DNA of 12,202 nt from an uncultured archaeon (GCA_964510585.1 CAZECW010000026.1:1-12202), one strand, 5' to 3'. Numbered from the stretch's first letter, positions 1 through 12,202 are shown. The notes: a model not told the origin generated them from the sequence alone. A program made the numbers and translations.

Positions 1-180
1 GCCTAAATCGGCGCCCGAAAATCCCCACGGAGGGTTTTTCCGACCACTATCCTCTAAATGGGAAACCCCTAAAATAAACATAGTCAAGTGTCAACAATTT
101 TTGAATTAGTGAGAATATGGTGGATTATTCTCAGGGAGAGAGAATTGGGTACTTTATAGTTTTTTTAGCGTTTAGAGTGG

Positions 181-636
181 CTACTTGCTTCTTTTGCTAA
201 GTACTTGCTGTATGTATTTTTCTATGGTGTTCAGGGCAAACTCTGCAGTTTTAATTGCGTCTTTCGCATCGTCCTCCTTGTAGGATTTGCGGGGTGAAAC
301 TACTGTTCTCGCCCTGATTGCTGGGTAGCGGCTTGCTGTATACTGTTCCATTAGCCAAGATGTTTCACGAAAAACATTTCTAAGCTCTTCCACCCAGTCT
401 TGGGGTGCGTGGGTTATCACTTCAGCGGCAAAAAGGGCTCCTAAATCATGTTCGTACACTTGTGTTAGGCCCTCGCAGGCGAGTGTTGCCTTCATAGCCT
501 TTTCAACGCACTGTTGTGATTCGAAAACTACTTTGTGAAAAAACTTTTGTTTGAGAAGCTCTCTCGCTGCTTGCAAGTCAACTTTAGCTTCTTCAATTAG
601 TTCATATGCTAATTTAATTGTCAAGTCTGAGGTCAT
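181..636 (-). CDS. HEPN-domain protein (COG2250/PF05168-like), toxin-side partner of an MNT-HEPN pair, 151 aa
   Basis: Motifs A-x2-DL-x2-A, FESQQCVEKAMKA, HDL and C-terminal YTASRYP are typical of MNT-associated HEPN proteins. Start moved to the ATG at 636, which overlaps the MNT stop as ATGA (633-636). Confidence 0.9.
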   Translation of the reverse strand: MTSDLTIKLAYELIEEAKVDLQAARELLKQKFFHKVVFESQQCVEKAMKATLACEGLTQVYEHDLGALFAAEVITHAPQDWVEELRNVFRETSWLMEQYTASRYPAIRARTVVSPRKSYKEDDAKDAIKTAEFALNTIEKYIQQVLSKRSK

Positions 637-1055
637 TTTACCACCCATATGCCGCTTCTCGGATAGTACTTAATTTTGCCCGTTTCCACATCTTTAAATA
701 TTTCTTGGATTTTCTTCTCAAAGAATCCTGAGGGGTCAAAGAGAACCTGGTACCCTGAGGCTACTCCGAGAACAAGTGGGAATCTTGTGTCAACCATATA
801 GTTGAAGTCGTCTGGGGTGAAGGGCAGGCAGCGAACCGCCCTTTTAAGAAGCCAAGTTAAGTCAGTATCAACTCTAACTACTCTTTTACTAATGGAGGAA
901 TAATCCTCCTCGATGATTGCCAGAATGTCAATGTCGCTTGTGGGTTTCTCCCTCCCCTGCGCAAAAGAGCCAAAGAGAACCAGAGAAATCAAAGTATCCC
1001 TGAACTCTTCCCTGAAAGATTTTGCAATAATATCCTTTTCCTGCTCTGAAAGCAC
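633..1055 (-). CDS. Minimal nucleotidyltransferase (MNT), antitoxin of the MNT-HEPN pair, 140 aa
   Basis: LVLFGSFAQGREKPTSDIDILAI contains an exact GS-X10-DXD motif. GTG start is preceded by AGGGGT, and the gene is translationally coupled to the HEPN gene. Confidence 0.92.
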   Translation of the reverse strand: MLSEQEKDIIAKSFREEFRDTLISLVLFGSFAQGREKPTSDIDILAIIEEDYSSISKRVVRVDTDLTWLLKRAVRCLPFTPDDFNYMVDTRFPLVLGVASGYQVLFDPSGFFEKKIQEIFKDVETGKIKYYPRSGIWVVK

Positions 1056-1091
1056 TTTAAGAACCCCTTTCTCTAGTAAGCCCTTCTTACC

Positions 1092-1106
1092 TCATAAAGG
1101 TTTCTT
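1092..1106 (-). promoter_or_regulatory. Candidate BRE/TATA for the MNT-HEPN operon
   Basis: Minus strand reads AAGAAAC-C-TTTATGA about 37 nt upstream of the GTG. A 5-bp inverted repeat (GTAAG-N5-CTTAC, 1076-1090) lies just downstream. The TATA match is imperfect. Confidence 0.3.
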
Positions 1107-1115
1107 AGAGGCGGC

Positions 1116-1285
1116 GGCGATGTAGATTCACTCAGTTCCGCCCCTAAACGAAGCGCTTACAAGGCTTCTTTTCGATGAGCCTCAAAACAAATAGAAAAAT
1201 AGAACAATCCTATATCAACGGGTTCCAGGCGATGCAGATTCACCAAAATTTCTCCTCACCAAGTCGCTATGAAAAATAGAACAAT
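1116..1285. repeat. Interleaved direct repeats in A-B-A-B order in the MNT/XPD divergent intergenic region
   Basis: A = GGCGATG(T/C)AGATTCAC at 1116-1131 and 1228-1243 (15/16 identical). B = GAAAAATAGAACAAT at 1194-1208 and 1271-1285 (15/15 identical). Confidence 0.8.
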
Positions 1286-1397
1286 AACTACTAAAATGGG
1301 AAAATAAATTAAACTAAACTGTAGTTTGGGTTGAGAGTTCTGCTCAGCAGTTTTCTTTATAGTGCGTGGATGTTGAGGTTAACCATACCTTCTCTGA

Positions 1398-1413
1398 AGA
1401 AAAGCTATAAATA
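1398..1413 (+). promoter_or_regulatory. Candidate BRE + TATA box of xpd
   Basis: Purine-rich AGAAAAGC is followed by TATAAATA (1406-1413), about 56 nt upstream of the ATG at 1470. Confidence 0.5.
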
Positions 1414-1469
1414 ATTGCGAAAAAAGGCTGTAACCTAGTAGACAAGTGCTAGTTTGAAGAAGTGAGTGT

Positions 1470-10489: not shown

Positions 10490-10568
10490 TCTTTAAGATT
10501 ACTTCGCATCTGTGGGTGTTCCATTTAAGCTGGTGGAGTTTCAATCCTCGATTTGAAAGCCAGTTGTT

Positions 10569-10733
10569 TCACGTGCAGGAGCATCCGCCGCCAGATCCGC
10601 CGGAGGGTACCAATTTTCTGAATTCGTTTTTCCAACACTCGGTGCACAGCCAAATTTTCCCCAGAGTTCGATGTGTACCGTAAAGGAGGCTTACATTTTC
10701 GCCGCTCTTGCCACAGATGCCACACTTGTCCAT
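10569..10733 (-). CDS. Small Cys4 zinc-finger protein, 54 aa (not in the ORF track)
   Basis: Manual translation gives MDKCGICGKSGENVSLLYGTHRTLGKIWLCTECWKNEFRKLVPSGGSGGGCSCT*. It has two CxxC pairs and a strong RBS (GAGGAGG) 6 nt before the ATG. Confidence 0.8.
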   Translation of the reverse strand: MDKCGICGKSGENVSLLYGTHRTLGKIWLCTECWKNEFRKLVPSGGSGGGCSCT

Positions 10734-11197
10734 TTTATTCCTCCTCATAAACTTTTTTATTCTATTCTAGCAATCAAATTCCCGCAGAAGGGCTCCTGAG
10801 AGTGGATTGCCTGTACTAGGTCAAAAAATGACCCTACAGAAACTATCTCATAATGGTGAAAACTGCATGACGAAAAATATATTTGACGCATTTAAGCTTA
10901 ACGACCATATCAGTCCAGTTCAGCGATGCATATTTATTCGGCTCCGTTTCCACCGTAGAACTATAAATCCCGAAACGACTTGTTAAACGCTTCTTTCTCG
11001 ATGCTTTAACCAAACCATTCAACATTGCTCAGTTGTTTTTATAGAAATGTTTTTAAATGGGTAAGAGAATGATTATTACTAAAACTGGGATAGGAGATTT
11101 TGGATTTAATTTCTTAACGTATTAGTGTTTAATTAAAGATTCAATTTTTTACCCCTTATAGTTGGACTCAAAAAATATGGTTTGGAAGGAGGAGTTA

Positions 11198-11479
11198 ATG
11201 GCTATGTCTGAGTTGAACGTGAGTGGAGAGGATGTTGCAAAGGTGGCTAAGGCCCTGGCTTCCGAGACAAGGCTTCAGCTGCTAAAAATGTTGTCGAAAA
11301 AAACCATGGATGTCAGCCGCATAGCGTCGGCGCTGAATCAAACAGAAGCCAACATTTCCGCCCAAATTAAAATACTGGAAAAATTTGGCTTGCTAAAATC
11401 TCACTACGAGCCTGGGGAGCACGGGGTGAGGAAAGTCTGCGAAACAGCAGTGAACAAAATAAACATCAACTTATTATAA
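11198..11479 (+). CDS. ArsR/SmtB-type winged-helix transcriptional regulator (resembles the N-terminal domain of COG4189), about 93 aa
   Basis: VAKALASETRLQLLKML...IASALNQTEANISAQIKILEKFGLL...GEHGVRKVC. Start moved to the ATG at 11198 (or 11204) behind AAGGAGGAG. Confidence 0.85.
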   Translation: MAMSELNVSGEDVAKVAKALASETRLQLLKMLSKKTMDVSRIASALNQTEANISAQIKILEKFGLLKSHYEPGEHGVRKVCETAVNKININLL

Positions 11480-11800
11480 AAACATTTCACAAAAATGTGA
11501 AGCCAAACCAGAACCACTCTACTAATCCAAAAATCTTAAATTAAAAATTGGCGAACTTGAAACAATCGAACGCAATAAGCACAACTCATATGCGAAGGAC
11601 ACAAATTTCCAGTCATACCTCTTTTTTTATTAAAAACCACTATAAACTTCACGTCTTAAAAGGGATGAAGTGCCGTTTCAGATTTTTCATGGCAACACTT
11701 GAAAAAGTGAGAATTCGCACCAAACCCAATGATGAAAAACTTATACCCTACACTTACTCAAAGACCCAAAAACCAACCACTCATTTATTCAACTCTCGTC

Positions 11801-11816
11801 CAAGAAACTTTATATA
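11801..11816 (+). promoter_or_regulatory. BRE + TATA box upstream of ssb
   Basis: CAAGAAAC followed by TTTATATA (11809-11816). The predicted TSS is near 11840. Confidence 0.6.
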
Positions 11817-11839
11817 TCTAGAAGCATAAGCTTTAACTC

Positions 11840-11889
11840 AAATAGAAAAATGCTTGTGGCGGTTTTTCGCTGCTGGGCTTTTTCTATTT
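11840..11889 (+). other. Long RNA stem-loop in the predicted 5' leader of ssb
   Basis: Perfect 11-bp outer arms (AAATAGAAAAA / TTTTTCTATTT) plus 4-bp and 7-bp inner helices. Total 22 bp with five G-U pairs, two single-nt bulges and a UUUU loop. Confidence 0.65.
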
Positions 11890-11917
11890 TGTTTAAATGT
11901 TTGTAAGATGAGTTGGT

Positions 11918-12202
11918 ATGTCTGAACCTGAAGAGTTTAAAGTTGTTGAAGATTTGAGGCCCGGCCAAAGGGGGCTTAACCTTAAAGTTAGATGTGACTC
12001 AAAAAACGAGGCAAGAGACATCGTCTCAAGGAAGACAGGCGAGAATTTGAGGGTGACCGAGGCCCTTGTGGGTGACGAAACGGGAAGCGTCCTCCTCACC
12101 CTTTGGAACGAGGACATTGAAAAAATGGAGCCCGACCACGTCTACAAACTAAGCAACGCCTACACAACAGTTTTCAAAGGCTCCCTAAGACTAAACCTTG
12201 GA
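11918..12202 (+). CDS. ssb: Single-stranded DNA-binding protein, crenarchaeal/hSSB1-type single OB fold; 3'-truncated by the window end (not in the ORF track)
   Basis: Manual translation gives MSEPEEFKVVEDLRPGQRGLNLKVRCDSKNEARDIVSRKTGENLRVTEALVGDETGSVLLTLWNEDIEKMEPDHVYKLSNAYTTVFKGSLRLNLG. The DLRPG, VGDETG-x4-TLW and NAY...FKG.LRLN motifs fit the Sulfolobus-type SSB OB fold. Confidence 0.92.
   Translation, partial: MSEPEEFKVVEDLRPGQRGLNLKVRCDSKNEARDIVSRKTGENLRVTEALVGDETGSVLLTLWNEDIEKMEPDHVYKLSNAYTTVFKGSLRLNLG

What the first reader, a model, noticed from the sequence alone, without database searches (positions are those of the whole stretch)
1..12202. Gene-scale sawtooth of keto (G+T) versus amino (A+C) strand skew that resets at intergenic regions regardless of gene orientation
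Seen: on the + strand almost every gene block starts G/T-rich and ends A/C-rich, then flips abruptly in the next intergenic gap. Hand counts: 1261-1320 is 40/60 A+C versus 1321-1380 at 45/60 G+T (divergent junction). 4971-5030 is 48/60 A+C versus 5051-5110 at 37/60 G+T (tandem junction). 11721-11780 is 48/60 A+C versus 11851-11910 at 46/60 G+T (tandem junction). The same flip is visible by eye at the convergent xpd/vapC junction. Inside the beta-CASP gene, 43 of the first 50 codons end in G/T but 32 of the last 45 end in A/C, so synonymous sites are affected. The pattern is its own reverse complement, so transcription direction alone cannot explain it. Established: an A/C-to-G/T flip is the polarity seen at bacterial replication origins. 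Inference: intergenic regions here may be frequent sites of bidirectional strand opening or priming (dispersed or recombination-dependent replication initiation, or repair-patch synthesis), or selection may favour A/C|G/T junctions that can fold back.
Basis: partly seen in the sequence, partly recalled or inferred. Interest (0 to 1): 0.72.

Follow-up and report, generated by a model that had tools for sequence, protein, structure and literature searches.

The report
Gene-scale strand-skew sawtooth, Asgard archaeon
In this Asgard archaeon (Jordarchaeia/Freyarchaeia) most transcription units drift from G/T-ending to A/C-ending codons along their length and snap back at the next unit. The pattern is real, genome-wide and shared with relatives, I found no description of it, and it looks more like a strand-biased DNA repair or synthesis footprint than like thousands of replication origins.

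Summary
All hand counts are exact. Genome-wide (3.78 Mb, 217 contigs), third-codon-position G+T falls from 0.57 to 0.37 along genes, and from 0.52 to 0.38 at four-fold sites. 79% of transcription units (TUs) decline. Sharp A/C-to-G/T rises outnumber sharp falls about 4:1.

- **Unit:** the TU, not the gene. Operon-internal junctions do not reset.
- **Anchor:** mainly TU 3' ends, with a range of about 1 kb.
- **Spread:** a complete congener and a sister family also show it. Other Asgard families barely do.

Amino-acid composition, ORF-level translation effects, assembly artefact, fold-back pairing, palindrome anchors and a fixed-fork collision model are all rejected.

Between two close genomes, strongly skewed stretches lose keto/amino-crossing substitutions (transitions, A<->T, G<->C). 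A<->C and G<->T changes are not reduced. This split equals the published substrate range of the NucS/EndoMS mismatch nuclease. All sampled NucS-only Asgard genomes show stronger gene-to-gene keto/amino heterogeneity than four of five MutS genomes.

Skew also carries into non-coding flanks and across opposite-strand neighbours, so it is a property of the DNA strand. My best reading is strand-asymmetric DNA synthesis or heteroduplex processing, filtered by NucS and positioned by transcript ends. Symmetric gene-scale origins are unlikely. The scan has met related skew blocks in other genomes (GRINS-like).

The parts
181..1055 (-). MNT (633-1055) and HEPN (181-648) pair, one likely transcription unit. 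Third-position G+T falls 0.65 to 0.40 in MNT, then 0.43 to 0.30 in HEPN.
   Evidence: Pfam NTP_transf_2 and HEPN; per-gene thirds
1261..1380 (.). A/C-to-G/T step at the divergent MNT|XPD junction: 20/60 G+T, then 45/60.
1470..3371 (+). XPD/Rad3 helicase gene. Third-position G+T is 0.53, 0.43, 0.27 by thirds.
   Evidence: Pfam DEAD_2, HBB, Helicase_C_2
3251..3500 (.). Modest step at the convergent XPD/VapC junction: 29% G+T at 3251-3350, 51% at 3401-3500.
3496..4133 (-). VapB (3876-4133) and VapC (3496-3879) operon. VapB is 0.71 to 0.62 and VapC is flat at 0.45-0.49, so there is no reset at the overlapping internal junction.
   Evidence: Pfam VAPB_antitox and PIN
4442..4879 (-). Membrane-protein gene with no Pfam match. 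Third-position G+T falls 0.79 to 0.49.
4971..5110 (.). A/C-to-G/T step at a tandem junction on the minus strand: 12/60 G+T, then 37/60.
5083..6024 (-). Inosine-uridine nucleoside hydrolase gene. It is almost wholly G/T-ending (0.95, 0.83, 0.73) and is one of the most skewed genes in the genome.
   Evidence: Pfam IU_nuc_hydro E=1e-88
6025..6331 (.). 307-nt spacer that is 84% A+C on the plus strand (6001-6100 has only 6% G+T). It is single copy, has no Rfam match, and is still A/C-rich in a congener.
6332..8656 (-). 774-aa secreted, C-terminally anchored protein with many N-x-S/T sequons and no Pfam match. It is the one clear exception: the gradient is reversed, 0.36 to 0.60.
8450..9550 (.). G/T-rich block on the plus strand, up to 85% G+T. 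It spans the 5' end of the 774-aa gene, the spacer and the first third of the beta-CASP gene. It is single copy.
9026..10489 (+). Beta-CASP metallo-beta-lactamase RNase gene. Third-position G+T is 0.83, 0.58, 0.38.
   Evidence: Pfam Beta-Casp, Lactamase_B_6, RMMBL
11162..11479 (+). ArsR-type HTH gene. Third-position G+T falls 0.74 to 0.34.
11721..11910 (.). A/C-to-G/T step ahead of the OB-fold gene: 12/60 G+T, then 46/60.
11918..12202 (+). OB-fold gene, cut by the contig end. Third-position G+T falls 0.55 to 0.21 within the part present.

Best explanation
The sawtooth is a real, lineage-specific property of the DNA strands of Jordarchaeales. Each transcription unit (TU) runs from about neutral or G/T-rich at its 5' end to A/C-rich on the coding strand at its 3' end. 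The drop is anchored on the transcript 3' end and fades over about 1-1.5 kb upstream. The next unit starts afresh, which produces sharp A/C-to-G/T steps at terminators. I propose the bias arises from strand-asymmetric DNA synthesis or heteroduplex tracts, from repair, recombination or replication restart, whose polarity switches at transcript 3' ends. The footprint would be written in keto/amino letters because these genomes have NucS/EndoMS and no canonical MutS was found. That nuclease removes only keto-keto mismatches (G/T, G/G, T/T). Errors or heteroduplexes that pass through amino-amino mismatches (A/C, A/A, C/C) survive, so one strand drifts towards A+C and its partner towards G+T. Shown here: the gradient, its TU anchoring, its DNA-strand character, the class-specific substitution pattern, and the phylogenetic association with NucS-only genomes. 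Inferred: that NucS is the filter, and which process supplies the strand asymmetry.
For: (1) The gradient is TU-level, not ORF-level. Third-position G+T is 0.363 at TU-terminal gene ends and 0.484 at operon-internal ends. C-terminal amino-acid use follows (Gly x0.78, Val x0.84, Lys x1.17, Gln x1.18, Thr x1.15). The terminal vs operon-internal contrast is replicated in G005 and G006. (2) It is 3'-anchored. The profile from the TU 3' end is the same for all TU lengths (0.39, 0.43, 0.45, 0.46 ... 0.51 in 250-nt bins). At four-fold sites in long TUs, A goes 0.40 to 0.28 and T 0.21 to 0.32 over about 1.2 kb, and the profile from the 5' end is flat. (3) It has DNA-strand character. Gene-end skew correlates with non-coding DNA 240-340 nt away, upstream (r=0.23, n=472) and downstream (r=0.40, n=294). 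The abutting ends of opposite-strand neighbours correlate positively in plus-strand sense (convergent r=0.49 and 0.42, divergent r=0.23 and 0.37). (4) The main axis of synonymous variation among genes is keto vs amino: 73.5% of variance, loadings A+0.57, C+0.41, G-0.36, T-0.62, with gene values from 0.07 to 0.94. (5) Substitutions split by class. In G000 vs G003 four-fold sites, strongly skewed windows have transitions at 0.096 vs 0.166 and A<->T/G<->C at 0.017 vs 0.036, but A<->C/G<->T at 0.061 vs 0.055. In the gene bootstrap, the cross-class rate ratio is 0.76 (CI 0.67-0.88), the within-class ratio is 1.11 (0.95-1.32), and the ratio-of-ratios CI is 0.55-0.83. This partition matches the published EndoMS substrate range: it cleaves G/T, G/G and T/T, but not C/A and not the mismatches that lead to A:T<->C:G changes (PMC6159521). 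(6) Phylogenetic association. NucS is found and canonical MutS is not in f1, f2, f3, f12, f13 and f17. Keto overdispersion is 1.96-4.15 in 8 NucS-only genomes and 1.21-1.47 in 4 of 5 MutS genomes (the fifth is 2.50). PC1 is a keto/amino axis in 6 of 8 NucS-only genomes and 0 of 5 MutS genomes. Gradients above 0.035 occur only in NucS-only genomes. (7) The signal is diffuse: no motif and no palindrome anchor.
Against: No process is known that would make DNA synthesis or heteroduplex polarity switch at transcript 3' ends. Simple added one-strand damage or patch synthesis predicts more cross-class change in skewed regions (my arithmetic: about x1.8 at a G+T fraction of 0.12). The observed value is x0.56, so only a fixed-total repartition between strands (about x0.45) or a fixation bias (about x0.59) fits. 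A fixation bias could equally be selection. Averaged over loci, spacers are neutral and the mean skew stops about 40 nt after stop codons, as expected for a transcript-bound feature. NucS-only genomes such as G011 and G029 have almost no TU gradient (0.013, 0.016), so NucS would be at most necessary, not sufficient. The NucS/MutS comparison rests on 13 related genomes and is not phylogenetically controlled. My gene and TU calls come from a home-made caller.
Confidence: 0.4

Rival explanations
1. Selection on the transcripts themselves. The last kilobase or so of each mRNA is kept poor in U and G, and therefore unstructured. Possible reasons are to escape a U-preferring nuclease or terminator (FttA/aCPSF1), to expose the 3' end, or to make read-in antisense RNA U-rich and quickly terminated. 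This would be analogous to the purine bias that shields Bacillus mRNAs from Rho.
For: The gradient is TU-level and 3'-anchored, and the mean skew ends about 40 nt after the stop codon, where T recovers. The 3' 100 nt are predicted to be less folded (-14.3 vs -18.5 kcal/mol). The shift is diffuse, with no motif. The drop in cross-class substitutions fits a weak fixation bias (my arithmetic x0.59 vs observed x0.56). The drop is the same whatever the downstream neighbour. Precedents: Dierksheide 2026 (PMC13323073) and the U-rich RNA preference of FttA (PMC11616081).
Against: RNA selection does not explain why opposite-strand neighbours share plus-strand skew, or why non-coding DNA 240-340 nt upstream of start codons follows the gene. 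It does not explain genes that are 80-95% G/T-ending next to genes that are 7-15%, or the association with NucS-only genomes. Synonymous divergence is not lower at TU ends (flat at about 0.25).
Confidence: 0.25
2. Intergenic regions, above all transcript 3' ends, are frequent bidirectional initiation sites of DNA replication (dispersed or recombination-dependent). The sawtooth would then be a fork-direction profile, like human N-domains at gene scale.
For: The A/C-to-G/T polarity is the one seen at bacterial origins, and wild-type NucS-bearing Corynebacterium accumulates A-to-G and C-to-T changes on the leading strand (PMC6159521). Rises are sharp and falls gradual. Steps favour convergent over tandem over divergent gaps, which recalls yeast origins (my knowledge). 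The fixed-total repartition model gives reduced cross-class flux in skewed DNA, as observed. I saw no replichore-scale correlation of keto skew in G000 contigs.
Against: At tandem junctions the long-range skew lies only on the 3'-end side, not on both sides. Spacers next to steps are neutral on average. Operon-internal gaps do not reset. Correlation dies within one gene, about 2.6 kb, so replicons of 2-4 kb firing in most cycles would be needed for steps of 0.4-0.8. The complete congener is reported to have a chromosome-wide cumulative GC skew consistent with bidirectional replication (PMC11291895).
Confidence: 0.08
3. An ORF-level effect of translation or protein make-up: hydrophobic N-termini and charged C-termini, a codon ramp, or rising selection against nonsense errors along each ORF.
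For: Positions 1 and 2 also fall slightly along genes (0.52 to 0.48 and 0.54 to 0.44). Weak codon gradients along E. coli genes are on record: the Hooper and Berg title is cited in papers listed.
Against: Four-fold sites carry the full gradient. Operon-internal genes are flat, and operon-internal C-termini differ in amino-acid use from TU-terminal ones. The 3' untranslated 30-40 nt continue the skew. Asgard genomes run through the same pipeline show gradients of -0.011 to 0.026.
Confidence: 0.03
4. Assembly, binning or amplification artefact of this MAG.
For: The genome is a 217-contig MAG with 4.8% estimated contamination.
Against: The same gradient appears in the manually curated complete 3,576,204-bp Freyarchaeia genome (G005, 0.077) and in a sister family (G006, 0.063). 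Gene-level four-fold skew correlates at r=0.91 between G000 and G003. The extreme A/C spacer is also present in G004. The stretch is held by eight hot-spring runs from eight studies.
Confidence: 0.01

Closest known systems
[quoted passage not shown]
   Same: Both show intense, correlated GC and TA skews, that is G+T vs A+C, strongest at third codon positions, changing abruptly within 1 kb. In both, amino-acid use follows (Gly, Val up with G+T; Pro, Thr, His, Gln up with A+C). The mechanism is unknown. GRINS are commonest in Actinobacteria, and Actinobacteria are described as lacking MutS/MutL and using NucS.
   Different: GRINS are defined as duplicated stretches of more than 500 bp with more than 80% identity, tied to gene conversion. 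Here the skewed blocks are single copy. The skew is genome-wide, has one fixed polarity, and is phased to transcription-unit ends.
Replication-associated strand skew with a switch at the origin (bacteria and some archaea)
   Same: The polarity of the switch (A/C-rich to G/T-rich) and the keto/amino axis are the same.
   Different: The scale is about 1-3 kb instead of a replichore, and correlation is gone at the second neighbouring gene. The pattern is asymmetric around tandem junctions. It is present in both gene orientations within 38 of 41 contigs.
Human skew N-domains (sawtooth of TA+GC skew between replication initiation zones; Touchon 2005, Huvet 2007; my knowledge)
   Same: Both are sawtooths of the same summed skew, with abrupt upward jumps and gradual declines.
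   Different: N-domains span about 0.1-3 Mb with jumps at mapped initiation zones. Here the period is one transcription unit and jumps sit at transcript 3' ends.
Transcription-associated strand asymmetry (coding strand G+T excess; Francino and Ochman, Green 2003; GC skew at the 5' and 3' ends of human genes, PMC3787257, listed)
   Same: The skew is bounded by transcription units, with distinct behaviour at 5' and 3' ends.
   Different: The classical effect has one sign along the unit, with the coding strand G+T-rich. Here the sign reverses and the coding strand is A+C-rich on average (four-fold G+T about 0.45).
Purine bias of bacterial genes as protection from Rho (Dierksheide et al. 2026, PMC13323073)
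   Same: Both are diffuse, motif-free composition biases of the sense strand. In the purine-bias case it is linked to a termination factor's RNA preference.
   Different: The axis is purine/pyrimidine, not keto/amino. No 5'-to-3' gradient and no archaea are mentioned. That case is an RNA-level mechanism, whereas here the skew also marks untranslated flanks and opposite-strand neighbours.

Membership tests
Replication-origin strand-skew switch | A/C-to-G/T polarity at the switch point | tested here: met
   242 up-steps vs 56 down-steps; window steps
Replication-origin strand-skew switch | Skew persists on both sides over many genes, whatever their orientation | tested here: not met
   Neighbour correlation is +0.25/-0.20 at lag 1 and about 0 from lag 2. 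At tandem junctions only the 3'-end side shows long-range skew.
Replication-origin strand-skew switch | Origin hardware (ORB-type repeats, adjacent cdc6/orc1) or experimentally mapped initiation | not tested
   No shared motif or palindrome at the steps. Initiation mapping needs a culture.
GRINS | Mean absolute GC and TA skews above 0.15, mutually correlated, strongest at third codon positions | tested here: met
   Over 5901-6300 the GC skew is -0.59 to -0.91 and A exceeds T by 0.64-0.69. PC1 is a keto/amino axis.
GRINS | Stretch of more than 500 bp duplicated at more than 80% identity elsewhere | tested here: not met
   Window 5083-6650 and 8450-9600 match only themselves in G000, apart from one 67-nt low-complexity hit.
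GRINS | Amino-acid composition shifts with the skew (Gly, Val vs Pro, Thr, His, Gln) | tested here: met
   TU-terminal vs operon-internal C-termini: Gly x0.78, Val x0.84, Thr x1.15, Gln x1.18, Pro x1.11, His x1.10
Classical transcription-associated asymmetry | One sign along the whole unit, with the coding strand G+T-rich | tested here: not met
   Third-position G+T runs from 0.55 to 0.36 along TU-terminal genes. The mean at four-fold sites is about 0.45.
ORF-level codon gradient (ramp or nonsense-error cost) | Gradient restarts at every ORF, including inside operons | tested here: not met
   Operon-middle genes go 0.478 to 0.467. The operon contrast is replicated in G005 and G006.
NucS/EndoMS-shaped mutation or conversion spectrum | The genome has NucS and lacks canonical MutS | tested here: met
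   NucS_C hit at E=1.9e-32 at G000:C187:35160-35489. The only MutS_V hit is a weak paralogue at E=5.9e-9.
NucS/EndoMS-shaped mutation or conversion spectrum | Transitions, A<->T and G<->C behave together; A<->C and G<->T do not | tested here: met
   x0.58, x0.47 and x1.1 in strongly skewed windows; bootstrap CI; enzyme specificity from PMC6159521
NucS/EndoMS-shaped mutation or conversion spectrum | The bias disappears without NucS | not testable with these tools
   Comparative hint only: MutS genomes have low keto heterogeneity.

The most novel reading that the evidence does not exclude
Jordarchaeales, close archaeal relatives of eukaryotes, start DNA synthesis at a large share of their transcript 3' ends. 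These would be eukaryote-like dispersed, stochastic initiation, preferentially in convergent intergenes. The sawtooth would then be a fork-direction map written by the NucS blind spot.
Probability: 0.08. Interest if true: 0.95.

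Novelty: new variant of a known kind. Interest (0 to 1): 0.72.

Why it matters
In this genome, strand skew rather than expression or GC content is the dominant axis of codon usage, at 73% of the variance. It is phased to transcription units and is strong enough to change protein C-termini.

If the NucS blind-spot reading holds, it gives a concrete, testable mechanism for the unexplained GRINS skews of Actinobacteria and for kilobase skew patches seen in other archaea. Composition would then become a readout of strand-specific DNA transactions in uncultured organisms.

It also has practical consequences:
- A/C-rich strands lack stop codons and generate long false ORFs. Examples here are 5305-6132 and 6180-6635 on the plus strand.
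- Codon-usage-based gene calling, HGT detection and expression prediction will misbehave in these genomes.
- Skew-based origin prediction needs care.

Tried and rejected
- **RNA evidence.** No RNA holder was listed for the window or for 5000-6900. Antisense transcription and transcript ends could therefore not be examined.
- **mRNA circularisation.** A unit's own 5' and 3' ends pair no better than those of different units (-29.7 vs about -30.2 kcal/mol, p=0.65).
- **Junction fold-back.** No excess pairing (p=0.75).
- **Palindrome anchors (GGCC, AGGCCT) as in other genomes of this scan.** GGCC has a mean step of -0.006. The best palindromes are merely AT-rich, with steps of 0.016 or less.
- **Specific k-mers at TU ends.** The changes follow the mononucleotide shift (r=0.73-0.84), with no outlier motif.
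- **Mutation hot spot or strong constraint at gene ends.** Four-fold divergence is flat at about 0.25 along genes.
- **Head-on collision model with fixed fork direction.** Both orientations show the 3' drop in 38 of 41 contigs (-0.076 and -0.083).
- **Antisense transcription as mutagen.** Disfavoured, because the 3' effect is larger and longer-ranged than the 5' effect of sense transcription.
- **Expression-driven codon bias.** From their translated N-termini, the extreme genes looked like ordinary housekeeping enzymes (my reading, not checked by a search).
- **Substitution types in the A/C spacer vs G004.** My hand count of part of the spacer gave 15 within-class, 12 transitions and 10 cross-class transversions. 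The low-complexity alignment is too uncertain to use.
- **Rfam.** No family in the window.

Full report
**What the window is.** The 12,202-nt window is the whole contig C26 of a 217-contig, 3.78-Mb, 41.7% GC genome. Close matches to its XPD gene are titled Candidatus Jordarchaeia MAGs. A same-genus handle (G005) has the length, 3,576,204 bp, of the curated complete Freyarchaeia genome of Valentin-Alvarado et al. 2024 (PMC11291895). Pfam confirms the genes:
- HEPN/MNT and VapBC toxin-antitoxin pairs
- XPD
- an inosine-uridine nucleoside hydrolase (IUNH)
- a beta-CASP RNase
- an ArsR regulator
- two genes without a family, one of them a 774-aa secreted protein

**Checking the observation.** Nine of the 11 genes fall in third-position G+T (keto3) from first to last third. 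Examples are beta-CASP 0.83/0.58/0.38, XPD 0.53/0.43/0.27 and ArsR 0.74/0.46/0.34. VapC, the second gene of an operon, is flat. The 774-aa gene is reversed.

I wrote a self-training ORF caller. It gave 3334 genes covering 78% of the genome, and all its window calls agree with Pfam. The genome-wide results are:
- keto3 falls monotonically from 0.567 in the first 5% of genes to 0.371 in the last 5%, identically for both strands.
- Four-fold degenerate sites fall from 0.522 to 0.379. T goes 0.33 to 0.23, A 0.28 to 0.37, C 0.20 to 0.255 and G 0.19 to 0.15.
- Sharp A/C-to-G/T steps outnumber the opposite steps 242 to 56 at W=200. The ratio is about 6:1 at higher thresholds.

The pattern is far beyond chance and is not an artefact:
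- The curated complete congener shows it (first-minus-last-third keto3 of 0.077).
- A sister family shows it (G006, 0.063).
- Other Asgard families run through the same pipeline give -0.011 to 0.026.
- Gene-level four-fold skew correlates at r=0.91 between G000 and G003.

**What the unit is.** A 5'-to-3' gradient inside each gene is its own reverse complement. Orientation independence on the plus strand therefore follows automatically and says nothing about replication. The informative contrasts are these:
- Genes in the middle of operons are flat (0.478 to 0.467). Gene ends followed within 10 nt by the next gene stay at 0.484, while TU-terminal ends reach 0.363.
- Positions 1 and 2 and the amino-acid make-up of C-termini follow the same contrast: Gly x0.78, Val x0.84, Lys x1.17, Gln x1.18, Thr x1.15. 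The nucleotide pressure shapes the proteins, not the reverse.
- The contrast replicates in G005 (0.390 vs 0.439) and G006 (0.446 vs 0.489).
- The profile is anchored on the TU 3' end. In 250-nt bins from that end it reads 0.39, 0.43, 0.45, 0.46, 0.47, 0.49, 0.50, 0.51 for every TU length class. At a fixed distance from the 5' end it depends on TU length. In long TUs, four-fold sites are flat from the 5' end.
- 79% of TUs decline and 34.5% decline by more than 0.2. The type of neighbour makes no difference.
- Steps are enriched about 9x in convergent, 4x in tandem and 1.3x in divergent gaps.
- At tandem junctions, long-range skew lies only on the side of the upstream unit's 3' end.
- Averaged over loci, spacers are 0.50-0.51 beyond about 40 nt after a stop and about 25 nt before a start.

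**Explanations that fail.**
- Amino-acid composition and ORF-level translation effects fail on the four-fold sites and the operon contrast.
- Fold-back or circularising complementarity is absent.
- There is no motif or palindrome anchor, including GGCC and AGGCCT, which anchor similar patterns in other genomes of this scan.
- A collision model with a fixed fork direction fails, because both gene orientations show the 3' drop in 38 of 41 long contigs.
- Symmetric origins at intergenic gaps do not fit the tandem-junction asymmetry, the neutral spacers, the missing reset inside operons, or the loss of all correlation beyond the nearest neighbour.
- The congener is also reported to have a chromosome-wide cumulative GC skew consistent with bidirectional replication.

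**Evidence that the skew belongs to the DNA strands.** The mean gradient sits on top of very large locus-to-locus variation.
- Gene keto3 ranges from 0.07 to 0.94, an overdispersion of 4.15 binomial SD. The first principal component of third-position composition explains 73.5% of the variance and is a pure keto/amino axis.
- This variation is shared with adjacent non-coding DNA. The correlation with the gene end is r=0.44-0.48 at 40-140 nt and still 0.23 (upstream) and 0.40 (downstream) at 240-340 nt.
- It is also shared with the abutting end of an opposite-strand neighbour in plus-strand sense: r=0.49 and 0.42 for convergent pairs and 0.23 and 0.37 for divergent pairs. Selection acting separately on each mRNA does not predict this.

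**The substitution test.** I compared 18,491 four-fold sites in 152 ungapped orthologues of G000 and G003 (about 25% divergent).
- Divergence falls in strongly skewed 61-codon windows, but only for changes that cross the keto/amino divide. Transitions are 0.096 vs 0.166, and A<->T plus G<->C are 0.017 vs 0.036.
- Within-class A<->C and G<->T changes do not fall (0.061 vs 0.055).
- A gene-level bootstrap gives cross-class 0.76 (0.67-0.88) and within-class 1.11 (0.95-1.32).
- By my own arithmetic, extra one-strand damage or extra patch synthesis would raise cross-class change (about x1.8 at a G+T fraction of 0.12). A fixed error budget repartitioned between strands gives about x0.45. A fixation bias of S about 1.9 gives about x0.59. 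The observed value is x0.56.
- Simple added deamination is therefore rejected. The last two models cannot be separated here.

**The NucS link.** The class split equals the published substrate range of EndoMS/NucS. It cleaves G/T, G/G and T/T mismatches. It does not cleave C/A, and it does not cleave the mismatches that lead to A:T<->C:G transversions (Takemoto 2018, PMC6159521).
- G000 and all its order have NucS, and no canonical MutS was found. Several other Asgard families have MutS, and NucS was not found in them.
- In 14 sampled genomes, keto3 overdispersion is 1.96-4.15 in the eight NucS-only genomes and 1.21-1.47 in four of five MutS genomes (G016 is 2.50).
- PC1 is a keto/amino axis in six of eight NucS-only genomes and in none of five MutS genomes.
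- TU gradients above 0.035 and frequent up-steps occur only in NucS-only genomes.
- These genomes are kin and the sample is small, so this is a lead and not proof. NucS alone is not sufficient, because G011 and G029 lack the TU gradient.

**Best reading and rivals.**
- *Best reading (confidence about 0.4).* A DNA-level, strand-asymmetric synthesis or heteroduplex process has a polarity that flips at transcript 3' ends. It is recorded in keto/amino letters because only keto-keto mismatches are removed.
- *Main rival (0.25).* Transcript-level selection for U/G-poor, unstructured 3' parts. It has good precedents (PMC13323073, PMC11616081) and fits the mean profile, but not the flank and neighbour correlations or the NucS association.
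They would be remarkable in a close relative of eukaryotes.

**Relation to the known.**
- The closest described phenomenon is GRINS (PMC8256042). It shares the same correlated GC and TA skews at third positions, the abrupt changes and the amino-acid effects. Its mechanism is unknown, and it is commonest in Actinobacteria, which are described as lacking MutS/MutL and using NucS.
- GRINS are repeats, and the blocks here are single copy. A genome-wide, single-polarity sawtooth phased to transcription units did not turn up in my literature searches.
- Earlier notes of this scan report related skew blocks in this genome (an intragenic flip in actin), in Bathyarchaeia, in actinobacteria and in a corynephage.

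**Limits.**
- The gene and TU calls are home-made.
- No RNA data could be used.
- The substitution test rests on one genome pair.

Noticed in passing
window 6025-6331: A 307-nt spacer upstream of the nucleoside hydrolase gene is 84% A+C on the plus strand, so it is a nearly pure G/T leader in the gene's sense. It is still A/C-rich in G004. A 67-nt look-alike in the opposite orientation lies just upstream of another extremely G/T-ending gene (C20:78275-79300, keto3 0.87).
   Followed up: partly
window 5305-6132 (+) and 6180-6635 (+): These are long false ORFs (275 and 151 aa) on the A/C-rich strand antisense to real genes. A/C-rich strands lack stop codons, so gene callers may mis-annotate such genomes.
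   Followed up: partly
window 6332-8656 (-): This 774-aa protein has a signal peptide, a Thr/Asn/Gln/Pro-rich linker, many N-x-S/T sequons and a C-terminal membrane anchor, with no Pfam family. It is the only gene in the window whose skew gradient is reversed.
   Followed up: no
window 181-1055 and 3496-4133: Two toxin-antitoxin pairs (HEPN/MNT and VapBC) flank the XPD helicase gene.
   Followed up: no
window 9026-10489 (+): A 487-aa beta-CASP/RMMBL RNase matched no Pfam KH domain. KH domains are present in FttA/aCPSF1 (PMC11616081). Its last roughly 40 residues are rich in Lys, Glu, Ile and Leu.
   Followed up: no
G000-G030: NucS and canonical MutS are almost complementary among the sampled Asgard families. 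NucS without canonical MutS occurs in f1, f2, f3, f4, f12, f13 and f17. MutS with NucS not found occurs in f7, f8, f9, f14 and f16. G013 has both.
   Followed up: partly
G000, all contigs: Third-position keto skew shows no correlation between genes two or more positions apart. No replichore-scale keto skew is therefore visible inside contigs of up to 105 kb.
   Followed up: partly
G000:C140:13896-14567 and neighbours: Adjacent same-strand genes have opposite extremes of codon ending (keto3 0.067 next to 0.756). The plus-strand skew then declines smoothly across a divergent promoter without a reset.
   Followed up: partly
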